Source of the DNA: Eledone cirrhosa
Lineage: Eukaryota
Length of the DNA stretch: 64,000 bases
Assembly: GCA_964016885.1 (NCBI GenBank)
Contig: OZ024743.1
Location: 63,922,001 to 63,986,000, forward strand
Direction: 5' to 3'
The translations under genes were made by a program, and so were the position numbers. Positions 3,150 to 54,478 of the stretch are shown here, one piece after another. Within the stretch, counting starts at the first letter, position 1, and every line of letters starts with the position of its first letter. The notes beneath the pieces were generated by a model. The model was not told the DNA's origin. It searched no databases and worked only from the letters and a program-made list of their open reading frames with translations.

Positions 3150-3182
3150 GTCTCTACACTCTCCTTTGGCTCTGCCGCCCAC

Positions 3183-24100: not shown

Positions 24101-24852
24101 CCTAGCCCGTCAGCATTCATCTCCTCAGTGGCCGTATCTCTGTTCCAGGTATTATTTATCTCAGTATTCAGATCATTGTCTGCTTCGGGTGGTTCCTCCG
24201 TTCTCAGGACCTCTTCACCTTCATTTCCCACTGGCTCGCTTGTCTGGCATACTACACCCGCCATCTCCAAGCCATTCTCTCTGCTCAGTTCCTCCAGTTC
24301 CAGCTCGCTTATCCATCCATTAGTTCTTATTACACGAGCCTGCCCGGCCAATTTTGGTTCATCTAATTTAAATAAACCAATCTCGTTCCAGATGTTATGC
24401 ATCCGTCTCCTGTAGCCCCTCTCCTTGGGGTTACTTTTCAGGTAACATTGCATAACAGTTCTATTCAATTCTTTCGTCCAGTTGGTTCTGGCCCCTTTCC
24501 TTCTTCTCCTTCCTCCAACATCAGCAGTATTTGGTTGACAGTCAGGTTCCTGCTGCTGAGCCAGGGGGCACCTGTTGGGTGAGAGTCTGTCACATGACGT
24601 TCTAGTCTCCATTTCACCGTTATTCGAACTGTTTATGTTCGATATTTAAACACTCTTATCGAGGATTGGCGAATGTATGGTTACATATCCATCTGTGGAT
24701 CCGCCATTCCACTTGGCCCTTGTGTGGCATTATCACCACGCTGTATACGAACACACATAAACAAACAAACACACAGGCAGAAAGGGCCCCAAAAATGAAT
24801 AAGCATAAGTTTCATTGTAATGTAGTGTTCGAATGTCTGACTTATTGTCTGA
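21110..24852 (-). mobile_element. Full-length R4/Dong-clade non-LTR retrotransposon (Dong-1) in a (TAA)n microsatellite
   Basis: Single long ORF, short 3'UTR, (TAA)n on both sides. Dong elements are known to target TAA repeats. Confidence 0.92.
21220..24612 (-). CDS. Intact RT plus restriction-like endonuclease (RLE) protein, 1130 aa
   Basis: [37 protein letters not shown]; CCHC CRIC..H...C; RHD; PD..D..K motif (RPDLVV..IVDVACP..EK). Confidence 0.95.
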   Translation of the reverse strand: METRTSCDRLSPNRCPLAQQQEPDCQPNTADVGGRRRRKGARTNWTKELNRTVMQCYLKSNPKERGYRRRMHNIWNEIGLFKLDEPKLAGQARVIRTNGWISELELEELSRENGLEMAGVVCQTSEPVGNEGEEVLRTEEPPEADNDLNTEINNTWNRDTATEEMNADGLGQDSVDILNLVVDELNNDSGRPMNLRFVDRKKLKETTAKVNKVIPYLEARSLHQCNNILKATANTVRKLLGIKARGNNRQERAEPWWKKRLSGQIGEMRNDIGKLESLLNGTLKNIGTKNRLEIKYKTRRKKLNIIIQELKQRIVAKSAKIRRYENRVSQYKQNRMFDNNQKMLFGQLEGKERGNDLIPGAEQTKTFWRGIWEQDVRHNAQAGWIETVQREIGEQAQQQTDLSITVETLKGQAKKLTNWKSPGPDGVQGYWIKHLTSLHPKLTAMFNDCLVSGEVPEWLTKGTTVLIMKDRIKGNDVTNYRPITCLSVMWKLLTSIVSEEIYHHLHTNNLLPDEQKGCRKKSRGTKDQLLIDKMVMGNCRRRHTDLAMGWIDYRKAFDMVPHSWITKSLEIFRVADNIRQLLGRSMGSWETELTSTGVSLGSVKIKRGIFQGDSLSPLLFVLALMPLTIMLRKVRAGYKLGRGELTINHLLFMDDLKLFGKSEKELDVLVDTVRIFSSDICMQFGIGKCGVIVMKRGRLSRSNGIQIPTGEMIKEIDSEEGYKYLGVLEADGIKNKKMKELLRTEYIRRVRSVLKSHLNSRNAISAVNSRAVSIIRYSAGILRWNVAEQKEMDRKTRKLLTIYNMFHKRSDVDRLYLRRSEGGRGLISIEDCVQMEKNNLYKYVTYSKEPMLRTVLKEGTIGQGMSKEEITSRRKSSLKGKSLHSTFFEKTEFRDPQTWNWLRRGDLKKATEGMLMAAQEQALKTKWLKHHIYKEEASPLCRICGEREETVAHIVSECKHLAQTHYKGWRHDVMGRVIHWHLCKVNNLPHSEKWYEHRPEAVMENNQVKVLWDFRIQTDKKLEHNRPDLVVVDKEKRSCLIVDVACPFDTRVQEKEREKINRYQDLKWEVKRIWNCHEVKVIPIVIGALGTISKSFQGWLKKIGPFTLFGTLQKACLLGTARTLRYVLNI

Positions 24853-25117
24853 TTATTATTATTATTATTATTATTATTTGCATTTATCTTGCTTTATGTT
24901 TATACGAGTTATCACCAAGTCACAACCAGTGACCTCAAGAGACAACAAGGTCCGCCATGTTCAAGAAAGAACACACATATTCACACATGCATCCTTAGTG
25001 TTTAGACTTGTGATGTACTTATATTGACAGGATCTTCCTTAGTATATGGGCAGTTCCCATTAGTACTATCTTTTGTATTTCTCCTATACGCGGGTTTCCT
25101 GGGATTTGCGATAAGTA

Positions 25118-25118
25118 A

Positions 25119-25175
<57 letters not shown>

Positions 25176-27166
25176 GATTGTTATTACTCTTTGAGTCTCA
25201 GTCATTGATGTTAGTTAACTGGAAAGTTTGTTGAGATGAATATCAAGCCACTACCTGCCGCCTCAGATATTCAGGACGTATCGGAGGGTTCTTGCTGTTC
25301 CCAGCACGCATGCCTTTTGAAGCGTTCCAAAAAGCGTGAAGGGGCCAATTTTCTTTAACCATCCCTGGAAACTTTTTGAGATAGTCCCTAGTGCGCCTAT
25401 GACAATCGGGATCATTTTGACTTCATGACAGTTCCAAATCCTTTTTACCTCCCACTTTAAGTCCTGGTATCGGTTAATTTTCTCCCTCTCCTTCTCTTGC
25501 ACTCTCGTGTCGAATGGGCAGGCCACATCCACAATCAGACACGCTCTTTTTTCTTTGTCCAAAACCACCAGGTCAGGTCTATTGTGTTCCAGTTTCTTGT
25601 CCGTCTGTATCCTAAAATCCCACAGCACCTTCATCTGATCGTTTTCTATCACCGCCTCTGGCTTATGCTCATACCACTTTTCAGAATGTGGTAAATTGTT
25701 TACTTTGCATAGGTGCCAGTGGATGACCCTGCCCATCACATCATGTCTCCAGCCCTTATAGTGAGTCTGGGCTAGGTGTTTACACTCGGATACAATGTGA
25801 GCCACAGTCTCCTCTCTCTCTCCACAGATCCTGTACAGTGGGCTAGCCTCCTCCTTGTAAATGTGGTGTTTCAACCACTTCGTTTTGAGGGCCTGCTCCT
25901 GCGCAGCCATTAACATTCCTTCTATAGCCTTTTTAAGGTCTCCTCTTTTCAACCAGTTCCATGTCTGTGGATCTCTAAATTCAGTTTTCTCAAAGAAGGT
26001 ACTATGAAAGGATTTTTCCTGAAGGCTGCTCTTTCTCCTTGATGTTATTTCTTCCTTGGACATCCCCTGGCCTATTGTCCCCTCCTTCAGTACAGTTCTG
26101 AGCATTGGCTCCTTACTATCAGTCACGTATTTGTGTAGGTTGTTTTTCTCCATCTGAACACAGTCCTCTATGCTGATAAAACCTCTTCCGCCCTCAGATC
26201 TCCTTAAGTAGAGTCTATCGACATCACTCCTCTTGTGGAACATATTGTAGATAGTCAATAGCTTCCTAGTCTTCCTTTCCATTTCTTTTTGTTCAGCAAC
26301 ATTCCATCTCAGAATTCCCGCACTGTACCTAATAATAGACACAGCTCGGGAATTTACTGCACTTATGGCATTCCTACTGTTCATATGTGACTTTAATACG
26401 CTCCTTACTCTCCGAAGGTATTCAGTTTTATCAATGCCTTCATTTTTTTGTTCTTGATGTCATCAGCCTCCAGAACGCCCAAATACTTGTATCCTTCCTC
26501 AGAGTCAATTTCTTTTATCATCTCACCTGTTGGTATCTGGATTCCGTTACTTCTGCTCAACCTACCCCTCCTCATCACAATGACTCCACACTTACTAATA
26601 CCAAATTGCTTACATATATCATTGCTGAAAATACGGACAGTGTCAACAAGCACATCCAACTCCTTCTCACTCTTCCCGAAGAGCTTAAGATCGTCCATGA
26701 AGAGGAGGTGATTGATGGTAAACCCTCCCTTTCCCAACCTGTATCCTGCTCTCACTTTTCGCAGTACACTGGTCAGGGGCATCAGGGCAAGGACAAACAA
26801 CAGAGGGGACAGACTATCTCCCTGGAAGATACCTCTCTTGATCTTCACGCTTCCCAAGGATTCTCCAGTTTGCCCAACAACTGCCTGATGTTATCTGCCA
26901 CCTTGAAGATCTCCAGGCTTTTGGTGATCCAAGAATGAGGCACCATGTCAAATGCCTTTTTGTAGTCTATCCATCCCATGGCAAGACCAGTGTGTCTCCT
27001 CTTGCAATTCCTCATTACCATCTTATCAATAAGTAACTGGTCCTTTGTACCACGTGACTTCTTTCGGCATCCTTTGTGTTCGTCCGGTAACAAGTTGTTT
27101 GTGTGGAGGTGATGGTAGATTTCCTCAGACATAATGCTTGTCAACAGTTTCCACATTACGGACAGA

Positions 27167-27169
<3 letters not shown>
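25118..27169 (-). mobile_element. Dong-2, 5'-truncated and diverged (internal deletion ~26860, frameshifts)
   Basis: ORFs 25263-26384, 26405-26857 and 26845-27156 match Dong-1; TTA repeats on both sides. Confidence 0.92.
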
Positions 27170-27215
<46 letters not shown>

Positions 27216-27363
27216 GGCGACCTACGTAGGAAATCGTATTATCGTGAGCTCCGCAAAGGTTTGTTATTTCCGTTTGTTTAAAAATTGCCATTTATGGAAA
27301 ATTTTATTGTAAACTGTTTATAAGCACACATACATTGTTTACCGAAAAGGACACCCAAAAAGA

Positions 27364-29409
27364 TTGGGGCCTTGTGCCCAAAATTTTAACTTTTATTATT
27401 ATCCAAAAATTTCTTTGAAAAAAATGGCTAATTCCCCTCTGCACGAAGCAGCTGAAAGCCTTCCTCACAAAATAACACCTCACACCGACACCACCATTGT
27501 AAATGTTACTACGTTTGCCAACACAAAAAAAAATATAAGCAGTAGCAATATTTTAAATTTGTCTCAGGCAGACATTCATTTCCCGCCATTACCAATGACT
27601 GCAGGTGTTAAACCCTCCACCACCACCACCACCGCGACAACCACCACCACCACCACCACCACCGCGACAACAGAAACAAAAGAAGAAAAAAATAAATTAA
27701 CTCGTGACGTCGAAATGAAATCAAGCAAAATGGACTCTTCCCCACCAAAGACGACTGACGTCACCACCACAACTGAAAATAAAATTAATATCAACGATAG
27801 CAACAACAACAACAATGACATTATAAAACAGACCCTCAGTTTCGCCATCGTAGCAAAACAATTCGAAGCGTTCACGGTAACTCAAGAAGATTTAGAAAAT
27901 GCCAAACAAATGGTAAAGAAAGATGGGTACAGGGTCAGCCTCACCCCCCCACCTAATAAAATGGAGCATCGGCGCCTGTGCACCGTGTCGTATAGAACAA
28001 TAAATGTAAAATCGCGCCGAGTGGAACGGGCATCCGAGTCCCAAATCCAAAAAGCTTTGGGACATGTGTGGGCAAGAAAAACCCACATCAGACGTGGGCA
28101 AAAGTATGGAACCGTGGATGTGTTCTTTGAAGCACCAGAGGAGGCTAGAGAACACTCCATGGCCCCATTAAAAAGTGACGACCTCACACTCGTCCCAAGC
28201 TATTGTGGCCAGAGACTCGTAAAGATCAGGGTGACCCACGTTCCACCGGCCATCGAAATTCCCTGGCTAATAGCGGCTGTCCTCACCGGCATCGAAGCCA
28301 ACACGAAAATAATAGCAGTAGCAAAAGAAAAGCAGGAAAACTGGTCCGGATCTGGGATGGAGCTCCTGATCCAAGCGGACCAAAAAAGCATTGAGGAGAT
28401 CCCAGAGGTAATAGACCTCACTGACGGCAGCCACCTCACGGTAATTGTCGAGGGCAGAAGACCTAGGTGTGTCGTTTGTGGTGAAGGAACCCACCTAAGG
28501 GCTTTCTGCCCTCAGGCTAAAAGGTTGAGGCCACCTCTCCTACCCACCCCAGTGACAAAACCATCAACACCACCAGTAGCAGAGATGGCAGCAACAACTG
28601 TAGCAGCAACAACAGAAGCAACTATAACAGCAACAACCCCAGCAACAGTAGCAAAACCAACACCACTACCACCACCAGCAAAACCAACACCACCACCACC
28701 CAACGCTTCAGAACTAGCACCAGCGCCTACACCATCCACCACACCACAACCAAAACTAACGGCTGTGGAGGATTTTCCACTCCCCGGCCTATCACAACTG
28801 GAGACAGATTGTGACGACGAGGAGTGGGAAACGATATCCGGAAAAAAAAAAAGAAACCAAAAAAGAAAAAATTCTCTTCCTTCCCCCTCCAAAAACAAAA
28901 TACAGAGGGAAACAAATAAACTAAGAAACAAAAAAGTTAGGACAGATATGCCACCATCCACACCAGCATCACCAACCCCATCAACCCAAACACCAACACC
29001 ATCACCATCATTATCCCCAGCACCACCATCACCTACACCACAAAAGTCACCAAAATTCGAAACAGAAACAAACCCACAACAAACGCAAACAAAACAAAAC
29101 AACCAAAACGATACACACTACACAGCATTAAATTTGAACAACAAGCAATTATTACACTACATCCAACACAACACCAGCATCACAGAAAAAGACTACACAA
29201 CAACCCCAAAATTCACACCACCTCCACACATACAAATCACTCGCATCACACAGAAAACGTACATGACACTAAAACAAAAATTCCCAAAAGACATCGGAGA
29301 CTTCCGACAAGCACTCTCCAGGAGGATTTATAAGGACATCCTTCCCGAGGAGGCCACAAGCAGTGAAAAGGATGGAAAAACCGTCCTTCCCCTACGAGAA
29401 GTAAGGTAA
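27364..29409 (+). CDS. Tx1-C ORF1 (likely ATG start at 27424)
   Basis: CCHC CVVCGEGTHLRAFC; Pro/Thr-rich linker. Confidence 0.88.
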   Translation: MGPCAQNFNFYYYPKISLKKMANSPLHEAAESLPHKITPHTDTTIVNVTTFANTKKNISSSNILNLSQADIHFPPLPMTAGVKPSTTTTTATTTTTTTTTATTETKEEKNKLTRDVEMKSSKMDSSPPKTTDVTTTTENKININDSNNNNNDIIKQTLSFAIVAKQFEAFTVTQEDLENAKQMVKKDGYRVSLTPPPNKMEHRRLCTVSYRTINVKSRRVERASESQIQKALGHVWARKTHIRRGQKYGTVDVFFEAPEEAREHSMAPLKSDDLTLVPSYCGQRLVKIRVTHVPPAIEIPWLIAAVLTGIEANTKIIAVAKEKQENWSGSGMELLIQADQKSIEEIPEVIDLTDGSHLTVIVEGRRPRCVVCGEGTHLRAFCPQAKRLRPPLLPTPVTKPSTPPVAEMAATTVAATTEATITATTPATVAKPTPLPPPAKPTPPPPNASELAPAPTPSTTPQPKLTAVEDFPLPGLSQLETDCDDEEWETISGKKKRNQKRKNSLPSPSKNKIQRETNKLRNKKVRTDMPPSTPASPTPSTQTPTPSPSLSPAPPSPTPQKSPKFETETNPQQTQTKQNNQNDTHYTALNLNNKQLLHYIQHNTSITEKDYTTTPKFTPPPHIQITRITQKTYMTLKQKFPKDIGDFRQALSRRIYKDILPEEATSSEKDGKTVLPLREVR

Positions 29410-29443
29410 GTGGTCTTTCCCATCTTTTCCACTCCTTTTCAAC

Positions 29444-32400
29444 ATGACCTCACTCAGAATAGGCAGCATAAATGCGCGTGGCTTGGGGTCGTCATGGAAG
29501 CAGGGCCACCTGCTCAACGACCTCAGGTCACTAAACATAGATGTAGTGGCCATCAGCGAGACCAGAATCTCCGAAGCACAGGCTTTCGCACCGATCTTCG
29601 GCGGCTACGATGTGTACGCATCTCCCAGCCGTCCGGGATCGGGGGGAGGAGTTGCTGTGCTTTTTCGGAGAGGTTTGGATCTTGCCATACGGGCCATCTT
29701 CCTGGACCCAGAAGGTAAGTTGGTGGTGCTGGACGTGACCAGCGGAGACGGGCAAGCTTTCAGGTTAGTGGCCGTCTATGCCCCGACAGGAGCAGGGCGG
29801 CCTGATTTCTTCCGGCGTCTGGAGACCTTTCTTGGAACGTCCCGCTCTTTAGTGTTAGTGGGCGACTGGAACGGGATCTTAGATGCACGCTGGGATTGTG
29901 TGGGATTAGTGGATAGGGAAGGAGGGTGCAAGAGTCTCACCAACCTGCTCAGACGTTTTGAACTGTCTGACAGGTACCGAATGGATTTCCCGAATGTACC
30001 AATGTGGACTTGGACAAATCGCATAGGGTCATCCAGATCATATCTAGATAGAGTATTTTGTAGGGAAATAGATAGGTCTAGCATAGGCTGTCCACAATTC
30101 AAGATAGTCAGCTACACGGACCACAAATTCGTGATCTGTGTGCTTGACTTAGATAGGCTTCATAGACGAGGACCCGGCTACTGGAAGTTAAACACGTCTT
30201 TACCAGCGCGCAAGGCCTACAGAGACCGGATTAGCGAACTAGTTAAGCGGGCGTTGACGGGGGCCATCGTCAACAACAAGTGGTGGTTTGCTCTGAAAAG
30301 AGCAATTAGAATAGAGTCCATTAGGTTTAGTAAGACTTTAGCAATAGAGAAAAATAGAGCAGAGGGAGAATTAGTTAGAAAATTAGATGAGGCGCTTAGC
30401 AAAGGCATCGCGACCGACGTGCTTGCGGCGAAATTGGCCCTTGACCAATTCTTCAATGCAAAGCACGAAAGCTGCGTTGTCAGAGCTAGGGTGCGTGCTC
30501 TTAGACACGAGGGGACGAAAGCCGTTCAATGGGCGCGAGTGGCGGAGGCGCGTCGTGGCAACAAAGCCACGATGCGGTCTTTGGTGGACCACGACGGGCG
30601 CATGCTACTCGATCCCGGGCAAATGTGTGAAGCTTTTCAGCGACACTTCGCTCAACTGTTCGGGGGCAGTGGCGGGCCGGATCGAGGGATGGACTTTAGT
30701 GTCTACCTCGACGGACTGCCGCGGCTTTCGGCCACTGAGGCGGAGTGTTGCGAAAAGCCGATAACAACCGCTGAAGTACGGGATGCAATGACTAGTTGCA
30801 CAAGGGGTAAATCGCCTGGTTTGGATGGTCTGCCCTATGAACTTTACGTACAAATGCCAAACTTGTTCGGAGGCCTCTTGGCGGACGTCTACTGCAACTG
30901 GCAACAGAACGGGAGAATTCCCAGCTCTGTGAGCCGAGGAGCGGTGGCGCTGCTGAGAAAGGATCCGAACAAGGGGGATAACATAGATAATTTTAGGCCC
31001 ATAACTCTGCTAAACACAGAGTTCAAGATTTTGGCCAAGGTGCTAGCAAAGAGGTTGGCGCTTGTCGTTGGTGGTCTGGTGGGAGAGGCACAGACATGCG
31101 CCATTCCCGACAGATCCATCCACGACAACCTCCACCTCATGCGATACATCGTAGAGAGGGTAGCTAGGGAACCTGGCACGGGTGGGTCTTTGATCAATTT
31201 AGATCAGTCGAAAGCCTTCGATAGGGTCGACAATCGTTACCTAACGGCAGTCCTGAGGGCGGCTGGCTTTGGGCCCGTCTTCAGAGGCTGGATCGCTGCC
31301 ATGCACAGCGACATCTGCTCTGTAGTGAGAGTGAACGGTCACCTTTCGGAACCGTTCAACATCATGCGCTCGGTCCGCCAAGGATGTCCCCTCTCGTCCC
31401 TATTGTACGTATTGACTCTCGAGCCATTACTGCACAAACTGGAGACGTTGAGGGGGGTCCCGCGCGAACTAGGATGCGGAAGATCCGTGTCAGCATATGC
31501 CGACGATGTCACCGTAGTGGTGTCGAACGCCAAACACATCGAGGCGATCGGCACTACACTAAGAGAATACGAAGCGATCACAGGAGCAATGATCAACCAG
31601 GAAAAGTCAGTGGGCCTGCAGCTCGGCACCTGGAGAGGCAGGTCCATGCCGTCCAACAGCATAGTCGGGCGCTGGACGGACGGACCGGTAAATTGCTAGG
31701 GGTCTGGTTCGGTCCAGACCTCCAGACGGACAAAAACTGGGACGAGGTGACGAGCAGGGTGGCTTCTCTCACCCAGAAATGGGCCGAGAGGAAGCTATCC
31801 CTGAAAGGTCGAGCGGAGGTGGCGAATGCGTACATCGCATCCGTCATCTACTACCGCCTGACCGTCGTACCTTGTCCTAAGCCCCGCCTGACTGCGCTGG
31901 AGCGTTTGCTCTTTCGCTTCTTGTGGAAGGGACGCGCTCCGATGGTCAGGTGGTCCATCTGCTGTCAACACCCGCTACGTGGAGGGCTGGGCATGCCGTG
32001 GCTGATGATGCGCAGACACGCGCTCAGGCTACGACATCTCCACCTCTTCCTCGACGGTGATCAGGTGTGGTCGCCGTTTGCAAGACACGTTTTTCCCCAG
32101 CTCGTCTCCTTGACGGAGCTGCAGTCCTGGGTCAAGCGAAGACCGAGAGGGAGCGCTTGGAGACTGGAATGTCTTCAGGCGCTCACAGCCCTCGATCAAT
32201 CGGGCAATGTGATCGGTGGGAACTCCACCTTGGCGTTCTATAGGGGATTAGTGGAGGGGAAGAGCGACGACGTACTTGGAGAAACTCTAGGCGTCGACGA
32301 AAATCAACTAGCCAATCTCTTCGGAAGGACTTTCGGGGCCTATGGACAACTTCCAGAAATCCCTGGCCTGGCAGTGCTACCGAGGAGCTTTGCCAGTTCG

Positions 32401-32857
32401 GTATAAACTCTACAGGCATGGAGGTGCCGTCAGCCGGGCATGTCCGAGATGCGCGCAGGGCGACGAAACCGTCCTGCACGCACTCGTCCAGTGTCCGAGC
32501 ATTGCTGACTTGTGGGTTTATGTCGAACACCTGCTGTCACGTGTAGGACCTATCCAGCTATCAGCTGAGTCCATCGTGAGGATTGCCCCGCCCCCTTCCT
32601 TTAGCCTGGAAGGGCAGGCAGTTTTTATCTGTCTGGTGGCCATGGCGAAAGAGATAGTATGGTGGACACGTTTGAAAGGGCTGAAGACGAGCACTTACCT
32701 CTTCGGTGATGCCCTGATTAACTTTTTCAAATTTCATTTGAAAAGGAAAATCAGGGTAGAGAGGGAAGTGCTCTCTTCCCAGCATTTTGTTGAAAGATGG
32801 GTGAGAGAAGCAAGTATGGCCCGAATGAATGGGCCTTCTCTGAGTATGTGTCTGTAA
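29444..32857 (+). pseudogene. Tx1-C ORF2 (APE-RT-ZnF) with two frameshifts
   Basis: 1-nt deletion ~31690 and small deletion ~32337 relative to Tx1-E; APE and RT motifs present. Confidence 0.92.
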
Positions 32858-33127
32858 ATTAAAGGTGGAAAACTGGGAGAGGGCACTTGCCCTGGTGGTC
32901 AGGGCCACTGTGGTCTTTTAATGGGCTTTCTCCACAAATGTCCCTTGGAAGTCTCCCCCCTATTGGGGAATTTTTCTTTGTTATTTTATTTCAACCTCTG
33001 TTTTTTTACACGCAGAAATGCCCATTTGTACCGTCCTGTATTGTCCTGTACTGTCCTTAATGTCTACTTTATGTGAACCCTTGTGGTTAATAAAGAAAAC
33101 ATTATTATTATTATTATTATTATTATT

Positions 33128-33927
33128 GTTATTGTTATTCCTTGAATCTCAGTCATTGATGTTGGTTAACTGGAAAGTCCGTTGGATTGAATATCAAGCC
33201 ACTACCTGCAGCCTCAGATATTCAGGACGTATCGGAGGGTTCTTGCTGTTCCAAGCAAGCATGCCTTTTGAAGCGTTCCAAAAAGCGTGAAGGGGCCGAT
33301 TTTCTTTAACCATCCCTGGAAACTTTTGGAGATAGTCCCCAGTGCGCCTATGACAATCGGGATCACTTTGACTTCATGGCAGTTCCAAATCCTTTTCACC
33401 TCCCACTTTAGGTCCTGGTATCGGTTAATTTTCTCCCTCTCCTTCTCTTGCACTCTCGTGTCGAACGGGCAGCCCACATCCACAATCAGACACGATCTTT
33501 TTTCTTTGTCCACAACCACCAGGTCAGGTCTATTGTGTTCCAGTTTTTTGTCCGTCTGTATCCTAAAATCCCACAGCACCTTCACCTGATTGTTCTCCAT
33601 CACCGCCTCTGGCCTATGCTCATACCATTTCTCAGAATGTGGTAAATTGTTTACTTTGCACAGGTGCCAGTGGATCACCCTGCCCATCACATCGTGTCTC
33701 CAGCCCTTATAGTGGGTCTGGGCTAGGTGTTTACACTCGGACACAATGTGAGCCACAGTCTCCTCTCTCTCTCCACAGATCCTGCACAGTGGGCTAGCCT
33801 CCTCCTTGTAAATATGGTGCTTCAACCACTTCGTTTTGAGGGCCTGCTCCTGCGCAGCCATTAGCATTCCTTCTGTAGCCTTTTTGAGGTCTCCTCTTCT
33901 CAACCAGTTCCATGTCTGTGGATCTCT
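33128..33927 (-). mobile_element. Dong-3, 5'-truncated (RLE region only)
   Basis: Near-identical to Dong-1 ~21136-21932; ORF 33214-33903. Confidence 0.93.
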
Positions 33928-33958
<31 letters not shown>

Positions 33959-33970
33959 TATTATTATTAT

Positions 33971-34417
33971 TTCTCCGAAGAGGTAAGTGCTGGAAAGGGC
34001 TGAAGACGAGCACTTACCTCTTCGGTGATGCCCTGATTAACTTTTTCAAATTTCATTTGAAAAGGAAAATCAGGGTAGAGAGGGAAGTGCTCTCTTCCCA
34101 GCATTTTGTTGAAAGATGGGTGAGAGAAGCAAGTATGGCCCGAATGAATGGGCCTTCTCTGAGTATGTGTCTGTAAATTAAAGGTGGAAAACTGGGAGAG
34201 GGCACTTGCCCTGGTGGTCAGGGTCACTGTGGTCTTTTAATGGGCTTTCTCCACAAATGTCCCTCGGAAGTCTCCCCCCTATTGGGGAATTTTTCTTTGT
34301 TATTTTATTACATCCTCTGTTTTTTACACGCAGAAATGCCCATTTGTACCGTCCTGTATTTTCCTGTATTGTCCTTAATGTCTACTTTATGTAAACCCTT
34401 GTGGTCAATAAAGAAAA

Positions 34418-34451
<34 letters not shown>
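33971..34451 (+). mobile_element. Tx1-D, short 5'-truncated copy with (ATT)11 tail
   Basis: Matches the end of ORF2 and the 3'UTR of Tx1-C/E. Confidence 0.92.
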
Positions 34452-36435
34452 GTTATTGTTATTCCTTGAATCTCAGTCATTGATGTTGGTTAACTGGAAA
34501 GTCCGTTGGATTGAATATCAAGCCACTACCTGCAGCCTCAGATATTCAGGACGTATCGGAGGGTTCTTGCTGTTCCAAGCAAGCATGCCTTTTGAAGCGT
34601 TCCAAAAAGCGTGAAGGGGCCGATTTTCTTTAACCATCCCTGGAAACTTTTGGAGATAGTCCCCAGTGCGCCTATGACAATCGGGATCACTTTGACTTCA
34701 TGGCAGTTCCAAATCCTTTTCACCTCCCACTTTAGGTCCTGGTATCGGTTAATTTTCTCCCTCTCCTTCTCTTGCACTCTCGTGTCGAACGGGCAGGCCA
34801 CATCCACAATCAGGCACGATCTTTTTTCTTTGTCCACAACCACCAGGTCAGGTCTATTGTGTTCCAGTTTTTTGTCCGTCTGTATCCTAAAATCCCACAG
34901 CACCTTCACCTGACTGTTCTCCATCACCGCCTCTGGCCTATGCTCATACCATTTCTCAGAATGTGGTAAATTGTTTACTTTGCACAGGTGCCAGTGGATC
35001 ACCCTGCCCATCACATCGTGTCTCCAGCCCTTATAGTGGGTCTGGGCTAGGTGTTTACACTCGGACACAATGTGAGCCACAGTCTCCTCTCTCTCTCCAC
35101 AGATCCTGCACAGTGGGCTAGCCTCCTCCTTGTAGATATGGTGCTTCAACCACTTCGTTTTGAGGGCCTGCTCCTGCGCAGCCATTAGCATTCCTTCTGT
35201 AGCCTTTTTGAGGTCTCCTCTTCTCAACCAGTTCCATGTCTGTGGATCTCTAAATTCAGTTTTCTCAAAGAAGGTACTATGAAGGGATTTTCCCTTAAGG
35301 CTGCTCTTCCTCCTTGATGTTATTTCCTCCTTGGATATCCCCTGGCCTACTGTCCCCTCCTTCAGTACAGCTCTGAGCATTGGCTCCTTACTATAGGTCA
35401 CGTATTTGTATAGGTTGTTTTTCTCCATCTGAACACAGTCCTCTATGCTGATAAGACCTCTTCCACCCTCAGATCTCCTTAGGTAGAGTCTATCGACATC
35501 ACTCCTCTTGTGGAACATGTTGTAGATAGTCAATATCTTCCTAGTCTTCCTATCCATTTCTTTTTGTTCAGCAACATTCCATCTCAGAATTCCCGCACTG
35601 TACCTAATAATAGACACAGCTCGGGAATTTACTGCGCTTATGGCATTTCTGCTGTTCAGATGTGACTTCAATACGCTCCTTACTCTCCGAATGTATTCAG
35701 TTCTTAACAATTCCTTCATTTTTTTGTTCTTTATGCCATCAGCCTCCAGAACGCCCAAATACTTGTATCCTTCCTCAGAGTCAATTTCCTTTATCATCTC
35801 ACCTGTTGGTATCTGGATCCCGTTACTTCTGCTCAACCTACCCCTCTTCATCACAATGACTCCACATTTACCAATACCAAACTGCATACATATATCACTG
35901 CTGAAAATACGGACAGTGTCAACAAGCACATCCAACTCCTTCTCACTTTTCCCGAAGAGCTTAAGATCGTCCATGAAGAGGAGGTGATTGATGGTAAGCT
36001 CTCCCCTTCCCAACTTGTATCCTGCTCTCACTTTTCGCAGCATAATGGTCAAGGGCATCAGGGCAAGGACAAACAACAGAGGGGACAGGCTATCTCCCTG
36101 GAAGATACCTCTCTTGATCTTCACGCTTCCCAAGGATACTCCAGTTGATGTCAACTCTGTCTCCCAGGACCCCATACTCCTGTCCAGCAACTGTCTGATG
36201 TTATCTGCCACCCTGAAGATCTCCAGGCTTTTGGTGATCCAGGAATGAGGCACCATGTCAAATGCCTTTCTGTAGTCTATCCATCCCATGGCAAGATCAG
36301 TGTGTCTCCTCCTGCAATTCCCCATTACCATCTTATCAATAAGCAACTGGTCCTTTGTACCACGTGACTTCTTTCGGCATCCTTTCTGTTCGTCCGGTAA
36401 CAAGTTGTTTGTGTGGAGGTGATGGTAGATTTCCT
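34452..36435 (-). mobile_element. Dong-4, 5'-truncated; most of RT plus RLE in an open frame
   Basis: ORF 34538-36469 is near-identical to the Dong-1 C-terminal ~630 aa. Confidence 0.93.
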
Positions 36436-36674
36436 TATTATTATTATTATTATTATTATTGAATGCCATGGTTGACGGAGGCTCGGCTCTGTAAGGTATA
36501 GTAATTTTTAACCGTTAAAACAATTGTAAATTGTTTAAAACTTGAACCAAATTGTTGATAAAGACACCCTCCTCCTCGTGAGAGGGGTCTTTCTGTCCGT
36601 TATTTGGCCCTTCGGGGCTAAATAACCGGTTATTGGGGTTTTGTACCCAATATTCATTTTAAACAAAAAACAAC

Positions 36675-38771
36675 ATGGCTACGAAAAAGAAATTTCATAC
36701 GTCACTCCCACTCATTCCGTCTTCTTCTTCCTCAATCATCACTACAGCAGAGAGAAGATTGTCTCTCTCCCTCCCTTCTTTAAATGTGTCTCTCTCCCTC
36801 CCTTCTCTTTCGCAAGTGACGAAAGAAAAGAAAAGTCTCGTGCAAAGCGTGCAAAGTTTCTCCACGACGACGACGACAGCGACGAAACAGGTGTGCGGGA
36901 AATACGAAAACCCAGTTCATTCGTCTGACGTCAGGAATAATAGCAGTAGCAGCCGTAATAACAACAGCAACAGTGACAATGAAAACAACAGTAGCAGCCG
37001 CAACAGCATCACCAGCAGCATAAACAACAACAGCATTAGCAGCAGCAACACCAACAACAACCACAGCAACAGCGGCGGAGGCAGTAGTCGTAGTACCTGC
37101 AGCAACAACAAAAGTACCAGCAGCTCTGACGACAACAACAACAGCAGAGAAAAACCAATCTCATTTGCAGGTATTGCGAAAAACTTGGAAACAATCCTCA
37201 TAACAAATGAGGAATTAGAGGAAGCGAAGAAGATGGTTACAAAGAACGGACACCGAGCAATCTGCAAGGCAGCGGAAAAATTTTTCGAAACCCAAGAGCA
37301 CTGTACGGTCACGTACCGTACAGTAAGTACAAAATCCCGTAGGGTGGAAAGAGCCACAGAGGCCCAAATACAAAAAGCCTTGAGGTCTGTGTGGCAGCGG
37401 AAAACGCACATCACCCGAGGCAAAAAATATGCCACCGTAGACGTACTTTTTGCCACACCCCAGGAGGCAAAGGCCCAATCAGTAGTGACCCTAAGGAGCG
37501 AGGAAATGGTGTTGGTGCCCTCCTACTGTGGGCAAAAAATTGTGAGGGTCAAACTGACCCACGTCCCCCCCGGAATGACCCCTTCTTGGCTGGCCGCGTC
37601 TGTCCTCGTCGGAATCGAGGACAAAACAACTGTACTGCAAGTACAGAAAAAAGTAAGAGAAGATTGGGTCGGCTCCTCCATTGAGATGCTAATCCAAACC
37701 AACCAGGAGTGCATCGAAGCTATCCCGGATGTGATAGACTTCGATAACGGCACTCAACTGCCCATAAGTGTTGAGGGCAAACGCCCGAAATGCTTTCGCT
37801 GTGGATCGAAGACTCACCTCAGGGCCTTCTGCAACGAGAAGACCCTGAGAAAGGAGAAAACCCCCCTCCTTCCGAATCCGGCTCCACGGCTACCAGCAAC
37901 AGGACAAGCGGCAACCAGGAACGATAGGCCCGTGGCACCCATACCCACTCCACGGAAATCAAAAACAGCAGCAGCAGTGGAAATACTAACAACAACAACA
38001 GCAATACCAAATGCAGCTGCAACAGAGACTCCAGTGCAAACATCACCAACAACAACAAGTGAAAGAGTGGAGCTGGTACCCCTCTCCGACCTCACAGAAT
38101 CAGACATGGAGTGTGAGGTGGGAGAGAGATGGCAAAAGGTCGTAAGAAGGCACAAACGCAGAAGCAGCGCATCGTCGCCTTTGAAAAGGGAGGAAAGAAA
38201 TGAGAAAAGGGTAAAGTCTACTGCAAAGAGACCCACAGCAGCAACAACACCAACACCATCACCACCCACACTAGCGCCACCATCACCACCGGCGACAACC
38301 CCACCGCCAACAACACCTTCAACACCACCACCACAAGCACCAACATCGCAAACACAACAACAAAACACACACACCCAGCAACAACGACAAGAAAATAGCA
38401 GAACCACACCCCACCCCCAGAAAAACAAATGCACGGCAATAAATACACACAACAAGAAACTAATGACTTACATAATTGAACACACAGACATTTCACAGCA
38501 CGACTACATAATACCAGCACCAATCAAAACGCCAACTAACATAAGACTGCTAAAAATAGCACAGAAACAATACACAAACATTAAAACGAAATTCCCCAAC
38601 GCAGTTGGTGATTTCAGGGACCTAGGAGGAACCATCAATCGAAGAGTATACTCAGACATTCTCTTAGAAGAGCCGACGACCAGCCGAAGGGACGATTCAA
38701 CGGTCCCTTCACCAGACGATCAAGTGAAAAGGGATGTAAAAACCATCCCTCCTCTACCAAAAGTACGGTAA
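36675..38771 (+). CDS. Tx1-E ORF1
   Basis: 698 aa; Ser/Asn-rich N-terminus; CCHC CFRCGSKTHLRAFC. Confidence 0.88.
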   Translation: MATKKKFHTSLPLIPSSSSSIITTAERRLSLSLPSLNVSLSLPSLSQVTKEKKSLVQSVQSFSTTTTTATKQVCGKYENPVHSSDVRNNSSSSRNNNSNSDNENNSSSRNSITSSINNNSISSSNTNNNHSNSGGGSSRSTCSNNKSTSSSDDNNNSREKPISFAGIAKNLETILITNEELEEAKKMVTKNGHRAICKAAEKFFETQEHCTVTYRTVSTKSRRVERATEAQIQKALRSVWQRKTHITRGKKYATVDVLFATPQEAKAQSVVTLRSEEMVLVPSYCGQKIVRVKLTHVPPGMTPSWLAASVLVGIEDKTTVLQVQKKVREDWVGSSIEMLIQTNQECIEAIPDVIDFDNGTQLPISVEGKRPKCFRCGSKTHLRAFCNEKTLRKEKTPLLPNPAPRLPATGQAATRNDRPVAPIPTPRKSKTAAAVEILTTTTAIPNAAATETPVQTSPTTTSERVELVPLSDLTESDMECEVGERWQKVVRRHKRRSSASSPLKREERNEKRVKSTAKRPTAATTPTPSPPTLAPPSPPATTPPPTTPSTPPPQAPTSQTQQQNTHTQQQRQENSRTTPHPQKNKCTAINTHNKKLMTYIIEHTDISQHDYIIPAPIKTPTNIRLLKIAQKQYTNIKTKFPNAVGDFRDLGGTINRRVYSDILLEEPTTSRRDDSTVPSPDDQVKRDVKTIPPLPKVR

Positions 38772-38806
38772 GTGGTCTTTCCCATCTTTTCCACTCTATT
38801 TTAAAC

Positions 38807-41800
38807 ATGACCTCACTCAGAATAGGCAGCATAAATGCGCGTGGCTTGGGGTCGTCATGGAAGCAGGGTCACCTGCTCAACGACCTCAGGTCACTAAACA
38901 TAGATGTAGTGGCCATCAGCGAGACCAGAATCTCCGAAGCACGGGCCTTCGCACCGATCTTCGGCGGCTACGATGTGTACGCATCTCCCAGCCGTCCTGG
39001 ATCGGGTGGAGGAGTTGCTGTGCTTTTTCGGAGAGGTTTGGATCTCGCCATACGGGCCATCTTCCTGGACCCAGAGGGTAAGCTGGTGGTGCTGGACGTG
39101 ACCAGCGGAGACGGGCAAGCTTTCAGGCTAGTGGCCGTCTATGCCCCGACAGGAGCAGGGCGGCCTGATTTCTTCCGGCGTCTGGAGACCTTTCTTGGAA
39201 CGTCCCGCTCTTTAGTGTTAGTGGGCGACTGGAACGGGATCTTAGATGCACGCTGGGACTGTGTGGGATTAGCGGATAGGGGTGGAGGGTGCAAGAGCCT
39301 CACCAACCTGCTCAGGCGTTTTGAACTGTCTGACAGGTACCGATTGGATTTCCCAATGTGGACTTGGACAAACCGCATAGGGTCATCCAGATCATATCTA
39401 GATAGAGTATTTTGTAGGGAAATAGATAGGTCTAGCATAGGCTGTCCACAATTCAATATAGTCAGCTACACGGACCACAAATTCGTGACCTGTGTGCTTG
39501 ACTTAGATAGGCTTCATAGACGAGGACCCGGCTACTGGAAGCTAAACGCGTCCTTACCAGCGCGCAAGGCCTACAGAGACCGGATTAGCGAACTAGTTAA
39601 GCGGGCGTTGACGGGGGCCATCGTCAACAACAAGTGGTGGTTTGCTCTGAAAAGAGCGATTAGAATAGAATCGATTAGGTTTAGTAAGGCTTTAGCAATA
39701 GAGAAAAATAGAGCAGAGGGAGAACTAGTTAGAAAATTAGACGAGGCGCTTAGCAAAGGCATTGCGACCGACGTGCTTGCGGCGAAATTGGCCCTTGACC
39801 AATTCTTCAATGCAAAGCACGAAGGCTGCGTTGTCAAAGCTAGGGTGCGTGCTCTCAGACACGAGGGGACGAAAGCCGTTCAATGGGCCCGAGTGGCGGA
39901 GGCGCGTCGTGGCAACAAAGCCACGATCCGGTCTTTGGTGGACCACGACGGGCGCATGCTACTCGATCCCGGGCAAATGTGTGAAGCTTTTCAGCGACAC
40001 TTCGCTCAGCTGTTCGGGGGCAGCGGGGGGCCGGGTAGAGGGATGGACTTTAGTGTCTACCTCGACGGACTGCCGCGGCTCTCGGCCACTGAGGCGAAGT
40101 GTTGCGAAAAGCCGATAACAGCCGCTGAAGTACGGGAGGCAATGACTGGCTGCACAAGGGGTAAATCGCCTGGTTTGGATGGTCTGCCCTATGAACTTTA
40201 CGTACAGATGCCAGACTTGTTCGGAGGCCTCTTGGCGGACGTCTACTGCAACTGGCAACAGAACGGGAGAATTCCCAGTTCTGTGAGCCGAGGAGCGGTG
40301 GCACTGCTGAGAAAGGATCCGAACAAGGGGGATAACATAGACAATTTCCGGCCCATAACTCTGCTAAACACAGAGTTTAAGATTTTGGCCAAGGTGCTAG
40401 CAAAGAGGTTGGCGCTTGTCGTTGGTGGTCTGGTGGGAGAGGCGCAGACATGCGCCATTCCCGACAGATCCATCCACGACAACCTCCACCTCATGCGATA
40501 CATCGTAGAGAGGGTAGCTAGGGAACCTGGCACGGGTGGGTCCTTGATCAATTTAGATCAGTCGAAAGCTTTCGATAGGGTCGATCATCGTTACCTAGCG
40601 GCAGTCCTGAGGGCGGCTGGCTTTGGGCCCGTCTTCAGAGGCTGGATCGCTGCCATGCACAGCGACATCTGCTCTGTAGTGAGAGTGAACGGTCACCTGT
40701 CGGAACCGTTCAACATCATGCGCTCGGTCCGCCAAGGATGTCCCCTCTCGTCCCTCTTGTACGTATTGACTCTCGAGCCATTACTGCACAAACTGGAGAC
40801 GTTGAGGGGGCGTCCCGCGCGAACTAGGATGCGGAAGATCCGTGTCAGCATATGCGGACGATGTCACCGTAGTGGTGTCGAACGCCAAACACATCGAGGC
40901 GATCGGCACTACACTAAGAGAATACGAAGCGGTGACAGGAGCAATGATCAACCAGGAAAAGTCAGTGGGCCTGCAGCTCGGCACCTGGAGAGGCAGGTCC
41001 ATGCCGTCCAACAGCGTCGTCGGGCGCTGGACGGACGGACCGGTTAAATTGCTAGGGGTCTGGTTCGGTCCGGACCTCCAGACGGACAAAAACTGGGACG
41101 AGGTGACGAGCAGGGTGGCTTCTCTCACCCAGAAATGGGCGGAGAGGAAGCTATCCCTGAAAGGTCGAGCGGAGGTGGCTAACGCGTACATCGCGTCTGT
41201 CATCTGCTACCGCCTAACCGTCGTACCTTGTCCTAAGCCTCGCCTGACTGCGCTGGAGCGTTTGCTCTTTCGCTTTTTGTGGAAGGGACGTGCTCCGATG
41301 GTCAGGCGGTCCATCTGTTGTCAACACCCGCTACGTGGAGGGCTGGGCATGCCGTGGCTGATGATGCGCAGGCACGCGCTCAGGCTACGACATCTCCACC
41401 TCTTCCTCGACGGTGATCAGGTGTGGTCGCCGTTTGCTAGACGCGTTTTTCCCCAGCTCGTTTCCTTGACGGAGCTGCAGTCCTGGGTCAAGCGAAGACC
41501 GAGAGGGAGCGCCTGGAGACTGGAATGTCTTCAGGCGCTCACAGCCCTCGACCAATCGGGCAATGTGATCGGTGGAAACTCCACCTCGGCGTTCTATATA
41601 GGATTAGTGGAGGGGAAGAGCGACGACGTACTTGGGGAAACTCTAGGCGTCGACGAAAATCAACTAGCCAATCTCTTCGGAAGAACTTTCGGGCCAGGGC
41701 CTATGGACAACTTCCAGAAATCTCTGGCCTGGCAGTGCTACCGAGGAGCCTTGCCAGTTCGGGATAAACTCTACAGGCATGGAGGTGCCGTCAGCCGGGC

Positions 41801-42218
41801 ATGTCCGAGATGCGCGCAGGGCGACGAAACCGTCCTGCACGCACTCGTCCAGTGTCCGAAAATTGCTGACTTGTGGGTTTATGTGGAACACCTGCTGTCG
41901 CGTTTAGGACGGATCCAGCTATCATCTGAGTCTATCGTGAGGATTGCCCCGCCCTCCTCCTTTAGCCGGGAAGGGCAGGCAGTTTTTATCTGTCTGGTGG
42001 CCATGGCGAAAGAGATAGTATGGTGGACACGTTTGAAAGGGCTGAAGACGAGCACTTACCTCTTCGGTGATGCTCTCATTGACTTTTTCAAATTTCATTT
42101 GAAAAGGAAAATCAGAGTAGAGAAGGAAGTGCTCTCTTCCCAGCATTTTGTTGAAAGATGGGTGAGAGAAGCAAGTATGGCCCGAATGAATGGGCCTTCT
42201 CTGAGTATGTGTCTGTAA
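38807..42218 (+). pseudogene. Tx1-E ORF2 (APE-RT-ZnF), single +1 frameshift ~40811
   Basis: agggggcgtcc versus aggggggtcc in Tx1-C; otherwise open. Could be a consensus error in the G run. Confidence 0.9.
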
Positions 42219-42459
42219 ATTAAAGGTGGAAAACTGGGAGAGGGCACTTGCCCTGGTGGTCAGGGTCACTGTGGTCTTTTAATGGGCTTTCTCCACAAAT
42301 GTCCCTCGGAAGTCTCCCCCCTATTGGGGAATATTTCTTTGTTATTTTATTACATCCTCTGTTTTTTACACGCAGAAATGCCCATTTGTACCGTCCTGTA
42401 TTTTCCTGTATTGTCCTTAATGTCTACTTTATGTAAACCCTTGTGGTCAATAAAGAAAA

Positions 42460-42493
<34 letters not shown>

Positions 42494-42904
42494 GTTATTG
42501 TTATTCCTTGAATCTCAGTCATTGATGTTGGTTAACTGGAAAGTCCGTTGGATTGAATATCAAGCCACTACCTGCAGCCTCAGATATTCAGGACGTATCG
42601 GAGGGTTCTTGCTGTTCCAAGCAAGCATGCCTTTTGAAGCGTTCCAAAAAGCGTGAAGGGGCCGATTTTCTTTAACCATCCCTGGAAACTTTTGGAGATA
42701 GTCCCCAGTGCGCCTATGACAATCGGGATCACTTTGACTTCATGGCAGTTCCAAATCCTTTTCACCTCCCACTTTAGGTCCTGGTATCGGTTAATTTTCT
42801 CCCTCTCCTTCTCTTGCACTCTCGTGTCGAACGGGCAGGCCACATCCACAATCAGGCACGATCTTTTTTCTTTGTCCACAACCACCAGGTCAGGTCTATT
42901 GTGT
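42494..42904 (-). mobile_element. Dong-5, short 3' fragment
   Basis: Matches the Dong-4 3' end, including the caggcacg variant. Confidence 0.92.
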
Positions 42905-43166
42905 AAATTAAAGGTGGAAAACTGGGAGAGGGCACTTGCCTTGGTGGTCAGGGTCATTGTGGCTTTTTACTGGGCTTTCTCCACAAATGTCCCTCCGAAG
43001 TCTCCCCCCTATTGGGGAATTTTTCAATGTTATTTTCATTGTTATTTTTGTTACATCCTCTGTTTTTGTTTTTTTACACGCAGAAATGCCCATTTGTACC
43101 GTCCTGCATTGTCCTGCACTGTCCTTAATGTCTACTTTATGTAAACCCTTGTGGTTAATAAAGAAA

Positions 43167-43215
<49 letters not shown>
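42902..43215 (+). mobile_element. Tx1-F, 3'UTR-only copy with (TTA)n tail
   Basis: Starts at the ORF2 stop (tgTAAattaaagg); variant UTR; AATAAA then TTA repeats. Confidence 0.9.
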
Positions 43216-43217
<2 letters not shown>

Positions 43218-43491
43218 TTATTAGTAATATATATATATATATATATACATATATCAAATTTAATATAGAAATGGCTTCTACAGGACTAGAATTGTTTCAT
43301 TCAAAGAAAATCATCAGGAATTTTGTGTATACTCTCCTAATATTTTTGAGTACCTTACTTACTGTGGTTACCCCGATTGAACTTGGGACTCACACACACA
43401 CACAGACACACACACACATATATATATACATATGCAGGGTGTTCCTCAATATGTATATACACTTCAACAGCATTCTAATTAAAGTGTGCAT

Positions 43492-51024: not shown

Positions 51025-52089
51025 CTTCATCTACATCACCATCACCACCACCACCATCATCTACATCACCATCACCACCACCATCATCTACATCACCATC
51101 ACCACCACCATCATCTACATCACCACCATCACCACCACCACCATCATTTACATCACCATCACCACCACCACCACCATCATCTACATCACCACCATCACCA
51201 CCACCACCATCATTTACATCACCATCACCACCACCACCACCATCATCTACATCACCATCACCACCACCACCACCACCATCATCTACATCACCATCACCAC
51301 CACCACCGCCATCATCTACATCACCATCACCATCACCACCACCATCATCTACATCACCATCACCATCACCACCACCATCATCTACATCACCATCACCACC
51401 ACCACCACCATCATCTACATCACCATCACCACCACCACCACCATCATCTACATCACCATCACCACCACCACCACCATCATCTACATCACCATCACCACCA
51501 TCATCTACATCACCATCACCACCACCACCACCATCATCTACATCACCATCACCACCACCACCATCATCTACATCACCATCACCACCACCACCACCATCAT
51601 CTATATCACCATCACCTCCACCACCACCATCATCTACATCACCATCACCACCACCATCATCTACACCACCACCACCACCACCATCATCTACATCACCATC
51701 ACCACCACCACCACCATCATCTACATCACCATCACCACCACCACCACCATCATCTACATCACCATCACCACCACCACCACCATCATCTACATCACCACCA
51801 CCACCGCCATCATCTACATCACCATCACCACCACCACCACCATCATCTACATCACCGTCACCACCACCATCACCATCATCTACATCACCACCACCATCAT
51901 CTATATCACCATCACCATCATGACTGCCGTCAACATTATCACCATCATCATCATCATCATCATCATCGTCATCAGCATCATCATCATCAACATTATAATC
52001 ATTATCATCATGATAAACAACACCATCATCATCACCATCAACACTGCCATTACTATCACTATCACCATCATCATCATCATCATCTTCAC

Positions 52090-52143
<54 letters not shown>

Positions 52144-52230
52144 TATCATCATGATAAACATCACCATCATCATCACCATCAACACTATATTACTATCATC
52201 ATCATCATCATCATCATTACCATCATCATC
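51025..52230. repeat. Compound CAC/CAT minisatellite (~24-33 bp unit CATCATCTACATCACCAT(CAC)n) grading into (CAT)n
   Basis: Read directly from the sequence. Confidence 0.92.
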
Positions 52231-52319
52231 ACTAGTGAATTTAATTAATTCCCTTGTATTAATAAGCCAAATATACCTTTGTTAATGAGGTTAACTGTAG
52301 TAGCAGTAGATGCCATCAC

Positions 52320-54442: not shown

Positions 54443-54474
<32 letters not shown>

Positions 54475-54478
<4 letters not shown>

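What the first reader, a model, noticed from the sequence alone, without database searches (positions are those of the whole stretch)
25118..43215. Strictly alternating Dong(-)/Tx1(+) array sharing (TTA)n tails: possible composite two-LINE unit
Seen: the order is D2-T(C)-D3-T(D)-D4-T(E)-D5-T(F), with TTA repeats at all but the last junction. The three tail-to-tail junctions (~33100, ~34420, ~42460) share the variant ttGTTATTGTTATTcc, whereas stand-alone Dong-1 has ttGTTGTTATTcc. The last two junctions also share an identical (ATT)11 length, Tx1 UTR variants (gggtcactg, ccctcgg, ggtcaata) and a Dong variant (caggcacg), yet their outer ends differ. Inference: the Tx1-tail-antisense-Dong junction was copied as a unit, for example by 3' transduction in Tx1 read-through RNA or the reciprocal. 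That would be a composite of an APE element and an RLE element that target the same microsatellite in opposite orientations and whose tails regenerate each other's target.
Basis: partly seen in the sequence, partly recalled or inferred. Interest (0 to 1): 0.85.

Follow-up and report, generated by a model that had tools for sequence, protein, structure and literature searches.

The report
Two LINE families sharing one microsatellite
This is a pile-up of two kinds of retrotransposon that sit in opposite directions in the same (ATT)n repeats at hundreds of places in this genome and likely arrived one at a time; the one duplicated junction is likely a local copying event inside a single element, not a travelling two-element unit.

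Summary
The array is real; the composite element is not supported. 21111-43223 holds Dong-like RLE elements (-) and Tx1-like APE elements (+) separated by (ATT)n tracts. The true order starts with three Dong-type pieces (D1, a second Dong family, D2), so alternation is not significant (p 0.12-0.29). The tail-to-tail junction occurs at 474 places genome-wide, but the 'shared' marks are common family alleles (tail variant in 11 of 21 unjoined copies; caggcacg 4,044 copies). Tx1 and Dong haplotypes are uncorrelated over 65 junctions (Mantel r 0.01, p 0.46), and Tx1 tails precede Tx1 heads (26.8%) more often than young Dong tails (12.6%). The one truly copied junction is local: T(E) and T(F) are a single Tx1 (18 of 18 relatives carry the T(F) UTR), into which 730-780 bp of T(D)-D4 from 8 kb upstream was pasted, homologous at the left end and joined by 3 nt of microhomology at the right. 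That joint is unique in the genome. Likely mechanism: independent target-primed insertions into opposite strands of one microsatellite, plus one templated repair event. Worth noting: an (ATT)n-targeting Tx1 lineage sharing Dong's target.

The parts
21111..21146 (.). left-hand (TTA)8 tract plus Dong tail variant GTTGTTATT; true left end of the array
21147..24844 (-). D1: near full-length young Dong-like element; intact 1141-aa ORF at 21220-24645 (RT, CCHC finger, PD-(D/E)xK-type motif)
   Evidence: other copies run on past 24844, so D1 is probably slightly 5'-truncated
24852..24878 (.). (ATT)9 tract
24879..25117 (-).
   Evidence: 96-99% matches in 11 of 150 loci; C-terminal peptide resembling that of D1
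25119..25186 (.). (TAT)n tract and D2 tail
25187..27167 (-). D2: 5'-truncated Dong of a more diverged subfamily (93-94% to D1)
27168..27215 (.). (ATT)16 tract
27216..33100 (+). T(C): full-length Tx1-like element; ORF1 27313-29409 with CCHC knuckle; ORF2 (APE, RT, zinc finger) 29405-32857 in three frames
33101..33139 (.). tail-to-tail junction 1; independent of junctions 2 and 3
   Evidence: T(C) UTR differs from T(D) at 8 of 250 sites and is identical over 412 bp to at least 4 unlinked copies with different Dong partners
33140..33927 (-). D3: 5'-truncated young Dong
33928..33971 (.). (TTA)14 tract
33972..34418 (+). T(D): 5'-truncated Tx1 with a 17-bp fold-back at its left end (33975-33991 pairs with 34009-34025)
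34419..34463 (.). tail-to-tail junction 2 (donor of the copied tract)
34464..36435 (-). D4: 5'-truncated young Dong (99.4% to D1)
36435..36460 (.). (TTA)8 tract
36461..42124 (+). T(E) body: Tx1 of a second subfamily (ORF1 36663-38771; ORF2 from 38612 with one frameshift)
   Evidence: 97-99% to full-length relatives; family states up to 42124
42125..42904 (+). copied tract: copy of 34083-34862 (T(D) end, ATT tract, first 400 bp of D4 = 'D5'); left switch between 42125 and 42175; right end joined by TGT microhomology
   Evidence: 1 difference over 780 bp; T(D) states at 42176, 42186, 42198, 42209, 42211 where 18 of 18 relatives differ
42902..43168 (+). 'T(F)': the original 3' UTR of T(E), starting at the ORF2 stop
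   Evidence: 18 of 18 relatives with an intact 3' end match it at 97-100% against about 94% for the present T(E) UTR
43169..43223 (.). right-hand (ATT)n tail and end of the array

Best explanation
The region is an array of Dong-like (-) and Tx1-like (+) retrotransposons in one (ATT)n microsatellite, likely built by eight independent insertions, with one junction likely copied afterwards by local templated repair. Shown: both families are flanked by ATT tracts in a fixed opposite polarity at many loci; neighbours pair without regard to haplotype; T(E)+T(F) is one element interrupted by a copy of T(D)-D4. Inferred: each family's endonuclease nicks a different strand of (ATT)n/(AAT)n and primes reverse transcription there; every insertion leaves a tract on both sides that either family can use again, so mixed arrays grow. 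Inferred for the copy: a break near the T(E) ORF2 stop; the left end invaded the 96%-alike T(D) 8 kb upstream, copied through the tail and 400 bp into D4, then rejoined the right end at a 3-nt microhomology (one-sided invasion or replication template switch).
For: Counts: 3,757 young Dong 3' ends, 6,657 Tx1 3' ends, about 62,000 perfect tracts of 7 or more units (31,790 + 13,708 + 16,567). Tx1 tails are 5,487 of these (8.8%); 474 of 3,757 young Dong ends (12.6%) have a Tx1 tail beside them, against 455 of 1,698 T(E)-family heads (26.8%). Junction tracts run from 18 to 69 bp and carry tail B 45, tail A 39, other 9 times in 93 junctions. Tail B stands in 11 of 21 unjoined and 3 of 9 joined Dong ends. 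Mantel r -0.006, p 0.49, n 26; r 0.010, p 0.46, n 65 of 93; pairs near-identical on both sides 7 observed, 9.5 expected. The only pair identical on both sides and in the tract lies in a segmental duplication, 99.7% over 10 kb. T(E)/T(F) identity and switch points. The T(D)/T(E) UTR 30-mer has 5 copies in the genome, 2 here, and the other 3 are diverged and not joined to Dong; the D5|T(F) joint has 1 copy. T(D) has a fold-back at its left end, as expected of a Tx1 cDNA end (known from R2 and L1 5' junctions; recalled).
Against: Among the first 30 Tx1 3' ends on C1, 14 are followed by a Dong-type 3' end and only 5-6 by Tx1; among the first 30 young Dong ends 9 abut a Tx1 tail, above the genome-wide 12.6%. 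The genome-wide figure is about 1.4 times the tract-based expectation, and the patterns behind numerator and denominator are not identical, so a mild preference is not excluded. With older Dong subfamilies included the first Mantel test gave r 0.22, p 0.064 (n 34). I did not count all Dong subfamilies. The haplotype test covers 65 of 474 junctions and only the AAAAC end type. The endonucleases' cutting was not tested. The copied tract cannot be told apart, by sequence, from an RNA-templated copy.
Confidence: 0.87

Rival explanations
1. A composite Tx1-tail/antisense-Dong unit is moved by 3' transduction in Tx1 read-through RNA (or the reciprocal) and spreads through the genome.
For: The junction stands at 474 places; 12.6% against about 8.8% expected; one junction in the window was copied as a block.
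Against: No haplotype correlation; tract lengths and tail variants vary freely; the same T(C)-type Tx1 end is joined to different Dong haplotypes; the window's copied haplotype is found nowhere else; Tx1-Tx1 adjacency is commoner.
Confidence: 0.03
2. Insertions are independent, but the copied tract was made during T(E)'s own retrotransposition: its reverse transcriptase copied the 3' UTR, jumped at TGT onto a read-through RNA or exposed DNA of the neighbouring T(D)-D4, then switched back to its own RNA in the homologous ORF2 end.
For: Before T(E) arrived, the donor lay only about 1.6 kb from the insertion tract; a similar local copy (101 bp, 100% identical to the neighbouring Tx1 UTR) sits at a Dong 5' junction in L051.
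Against: Needs two switches, the first at 3 nt of homology inside an intact template; a single break near the ORF2 stop explains why the left switch (42125-42175) and the right joint lie within 40-90 bp of each other in T(E) coordinates.
Confidence: 0.1
3. The copied tract is the remnant of an unequal crossover between T(D) and T(E) followed by a 7-kb microhomology deletion, or it is an assembly error.
For: Local duplications of these arrays exist (seven near-identical Tx1-Tx1 junctions at C1:441.10-441.13 Mb).
Against: The deletion would have to end within 90 bp of the crossover point; the two copies differ at one site (34291/42333), and the joint is a clean 3-nt microhomology.
Confidence: 0.08
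4. Dong mildly prefers fresh Tx1 tails, or Tx1 prefers Dong tails, so alternation is slightly favoured without any co-mobilisation.
For: 1.4-fold excess over the tract-based expectation; 14 of 30 Tx1 ends followed by Dong-type ends.
Against: Tx1 heads show a larger excess (about 3-fold) next to Tx1 tails; 12 of 30 T(E)-family heads follow a Tx1 tail and 5 of 30 a Dong head; clustering of insertions in long pure tracts raises all adjacencies.
Confidence: 0.2

Closest known systems
Dong (Bombyx mori), R4 clade of RLE non-LTR retrotransposons
   Same: Single ORF with RT, CCHC finger and PD-(D/E)xK-type motif; best solved relatives are R2 proteins; sits in (TAA)n. PMC3774820 (passages) places Dong in the R4 lineage and builds its 5' junction with TAA repeats. 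Dong-R4 is reported as recently active in Octopus vulgaris (PMC13282606, passages).
   Different: Here it shares its target with an APE element and has at least three lineages in the array (young, about 93% diverged subfamily, DongB). No ribozyme match at the 5' ends tested.
Microsatellite-specific Tx1-clade elements: Kibi (TC)n, Koshi (TTC)n, crocodilian (TTCC)n/(TTTC)n families
   Same: Two ORFs, CCHC knuckle in ORF1, APE-RT-zinc finger ORF2 closest to L1 ORF2p; microsatellite on both flanks; tandem arrays by sequential insertion. Targets as given in PMC4494074 (passages), which also reads tandem SINEU-3 copies as sequential insertions and not a composite.
   Different: Target is (ATT)n, which I did not find for a Tx1 family in searches; two subfamilies share ORF2 (96%) but have ORF1s only 41% alike.
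One-sided invasion / synthesis-dependent strand annealing finished by microhomology joining
   Same: Copied tract homologous at one end, microhomology at the other, donor nearby in cis. SDSA and MMEJ as outlined in PMC4888836 (passages); the one-sided form was seen there only as a reference title, the rest is recalled.
   Different: Inferred from a single product; no experiment.
L1 3' transduction
   Same: Flanking sequence downstream of a LINE tail appears in a second place (recalled).
   Different: The copy ends without a new tail, lies inside an existing element and has no unlinked daughters.

Membership tests
Dong/R4 clade | single ORF with RT followed by CCHC finger and restriction-like PD-(D/E)xK endonuclease, no APE | tested here: met
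   ([26 protein letters not shown]...[10 protein letters not shown]; motif reading recalled)
Dong/R4 clade | insertion in (TAA)n, element sense strand ending in (AAT)n | tested here: met
   30 of 30 young 3' ends picked without the tract in the pattern abut an ATT tract in that polarity
Dong/R4 clade | RT phylogeny inside R4 rather than R2, NeSL, HERO or CRE | tested here: inconclusive
   1,308 relatives, the 120 listed carry no clade name; PDB holds only R2 and L1; no tree built. The name Dong rests on anatomy, target and recall
Dong/R4 clade | HDV-like ribozyme at the 5' end | tested here: inconclusive
   no Rfam match in the window or L003, L044, L047; true 5' end not fixed, and Rfam may not model it
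Tx1 clade (L1 group) | ORF1 with zinc knuckle; ORF2 with N-terminal APE, RT and C-terminal zinc finger | tested here: met
Tx1 clade (L1 group) | sequence-specific target | tested here: met
   all 30 loci of the DNA search carry an ATT tract behind the 3' end, one after a short insert; 1,698 heads preceded by ATTATT (heads without it not counted)
Tx1 clade (L1 group) | RT phylogeny with Tx1/Kibi/Koshi rather than L1 proper | not tested
   no named Tx1 reference was obtained; L1-group membership only
composite element moved by transduction | same joined haplotypes and break point at unlinked loci with different flanks | tested here: not met
composite element moved by transduction | transcript across the junction | not testable with these tools
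   no RNA holder listed

The most novel reading that the evidence does not exclude
An APE-type Tx1 lineage has converged on the (TAA)n target of RLE-type Dong, on the opposite strand, so that the two farm each other's targets in thousands of mixed arrays; in such arrays Tx1 reverse transcriptase now and then switches onto read-through RNA of a neighbour and captures antisense Dong sequence, and the T(E)-D5-T(F) chimera is one such capture, a first step towards a composite element.
Probability: 0.1. Interest if true: 0.55.

Novelty: new member of a known kind. Interest (0 to 1): 0.27.

Why it matters
The composite two-LINE unit would have been new, but it is not supported. What remains is modest but useful: young, apparently intact families of two unrelated endonuclease types (D1 has an intact 1141-aa ORF; 9 of 20 T(E)-family copies keep a 1204-codon open frame) use the same trinucleotide repeat in opposite polarity. 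That is a natural pair for asking how APE and RLE enzymes read one target, and whether such elements maintain a genome's (ATT)n repeats: Tx1 tails alone account for about 9% of long tracts. The locus is also a clear case of how local repair makes a chimera that looks like a composite element.

Tried and rejected
Tail variant GTTATTGTTATT as a junction mark: rejected, it is the commonest tail (14 of 30 ends). caggcacg as a mark: rejected, 4,044 exact copies; I did not count the other allele. ggtcaata-type junction elsewhere: 3 matches, 2 here and 1 on C3 with another Tx1 haplotype and tract. T(D) as the end of a Dong read-through: unlikely, its left end has a fold-back. L272/L273 as transduced twins: segmental duplication. 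Sequencing runs: no RNA holder listed. Contigs of runs X1-X4 laid on the D5|T(F) joint: no listed piece bridges it; the listing is cut, rare forms are dropped and the best holders share only 0.83 of the words, so this proves nothing either way. Rfam: nothing at gathering score, one chance match at E 0.34. Homologue search and Atlas gave no clade names. Earlier findings of this scan: none for this genome. Literature: (opposite orientation, same target, tandem arrays, microsatellite, alternating) found 0 papers; some searches gave listings; Repbase, Kojima and Fujiwara 2004 and Xiong and Eickbush 1993 were not read, and no supplements were opened, so an (ATT)n Tx1 family may already be described there.

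Full report
What is there. Self-comparison and tandem-repeat scans of the window show one array from 21111 to 43223 in which two kinds of non-LTR retrotransposon are separated by (ATT)n tracts. The minus-strand kind (D) has a single ORF; D1 encodes an intact 1141-aa protein with RT, a CCHC finger and a PD-(D/E)xK-type motif, closest among solved structures to R2 proteins. The plus-strand kind (T) has an ORF1 with a CCHC knuckle and an APE-RT-zinc finger ORF2 closest to L1 ORF2p. The labels Dong and Tx1 fit anatomy and target; they were not confirmed by a tree (one search gave no clade names). The genome is 3.0 Gb; I did not identify the organism. Both families are reported as recently active in octopus (PMC13282606, passages; PMC8967140, passages).

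The 240 bp between D1 and D2 are not flank: they match 11 of the 150 loci then held at 94-99.6% and encode a C-terminus like that of D1, a second Dong-like family. The order is therefore D1, DongB, D2, T(C), D3, T(D), D4, T(E), D5, T(F).

The junction is common but not a unit. Exact patterns give 3,757 young Dong 3' ends, 6,657 Tx1 3' ends and 474 tail-to-tail junctions (177 with the AAAAC end alone). Tail variant B is in 11 of 21 unjoined and 3 of 9 joined Dong ends among the first 30 on C1. The caggcacg allele has 4,044 copies. In 93 junctions (90 loci, the first listed apart from three at the end of C1, one on C3 and the last few on C4, plus the window's three) tracts run from 18 to 69 bp and tails B, A and other occur 45, 39 and 9 times. 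After dropping 28 in which either side was too short or diverged, 65 junctions show no correlation between Tx1 and Dong distances (Mantel r 0.010, p 0.46); pairs near-identical on both sides number 7 against 9.5 by permutation (a first set of 26 gave r -0.006, and with older Dong subfamilies r 0.22, p 0.064, n 34). The one pair identical throughout is part of a segmental duplication.

Alternation is not favoured. A Tx1 tail lies left of 12.6% of young Dong 3' ends and left of 26.8% of T(E)-family 5' ends (455 of 1,698). Tx1 tails make up 5,487 of about 62,000 perfect tracts of seven or more units, 8.8%, so Dong's adjacency is about 1.4 times and Tx1's own about 3 times that baseline; the patterns are not identical, so these ratios are rough, and some Tx1-Tx1 junctions are local duplicates. 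Against my reading, small samples from the start of C1 lean to T-D (9 of 30 Dong ends, 14 of 30 Tx1 ends), and I did not count all Dong subfamilies.

One junction was copied, locally. 34083-34862 and 42125-42904 differ at one base. The 30-mer that marks their Tx1 UTR has five copies in the genome: these two and three diverged copies not joined to Dong. Of 20 T(E)-family elements fetched, 18 have an intact 3' end, and all 18 carry the T(F)-type UTR (97-100%) and not the one T(E) now has (about 94%). T(E) shows family states up to 42124 and T(D) states at 42176, 42186, 42198, 42209 and 42211, where all 18 relatives differ. T(F) begins at the position of the ORF2 stop and shares TGT with the end of D5. 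So T(E) and T(F) are one element, and 730-780 bp of T(D)-tail-D4 were pasted in, homologous on the left and by 3 nt of microhomology on the right. This explains the identical tract, the shared variants and the missing TTA at the last junction all at once. The joint occurs once in the genome. The simplest mechanism is a break near the ORF2 stop repaired by one-sided invasion of T(D) and microhomology joining (inferred; pathway outline in PMC4888836, passages). A template switch during T(E)'s insertion, a crossover plus deletion, or an assembly error remain possible; public contigs could not decide.

How it likely works. Tx1 reads ...AATAAAGAAAWC(ATT)n on its sense strand and Dong reads ...(AAT)n on its own, so in target-primed reverse transcription they would nick opposite strands of the same repeat (inferred). 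T(D)'s 17-bp fold-back marks its left end as a likely Tx1 cDNA end.

Against what is known. Dong in the R4 lineage with TAA flanks (PMC3774820, passages) and microsatellite-specific Tx1 families (PMC4494074, passages; PMC4640811, passages) are established. An (ATT)n-specific Tx1 sharing Dong's target did not turn up in paper searches, but Repbase and the 2004 survey were not read. Verdict: new members of known kinds in an ordinary nested array, with one local chimera; the composite element is not supported. Interest 0.27.

Noticed in passing
window 1-6867: Two tandem Tx1-like elements about 70% alike to T(C)/T(E), flanked by (ATCT)n tracts at 976-1013 and 6829-6867: a related lineage with a different microsatellite target.
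   Followed up: no
window 27216-29360 and 36461-38720: T(C) and T(E) share ORF2 and 3' end at 96% but their 5' UTR and ORF1 do not align as DNA and ORF1 proteins are 41% alike: likely exchange of the 5' module between subfamilies.
   Followed up: partly
L051, about 2004-2104 in the orientation: A Dong 5' end is joined through about 6 nt of microhomology to a 101-bp copy, 100% identical, of the Tx1 UTR on its other side: a second local templated copy.
   Followed up: partly
window 54466-62278: Tandem array of a 632-bp unit, about 12 copies at 99.4% identity, with no stop-free frame of 80 aa and no Rfam match.
   Followed up: partly
G000:C1:441098472-441134899 and G000:C3:74.40/74.53 Mb (L300-L303): Runs of Tx1-Tx1 junctions with the same unusual tract, and a 10-kb segmental duplicate with a doubled 787-bp Dong piece: these arrays also grow by DNA-level duplication.
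   Followed up: partly
L005, 1634-1659: 26 bp identical to the Dong 5' region (window 24642-24667) lie between a Tx1 3' end and its ATT tract.
   Followed up: no
window 51027-52232: Long (CAT/CAC)n compound repeat with 27-33-bp periods.
   Followed up: no
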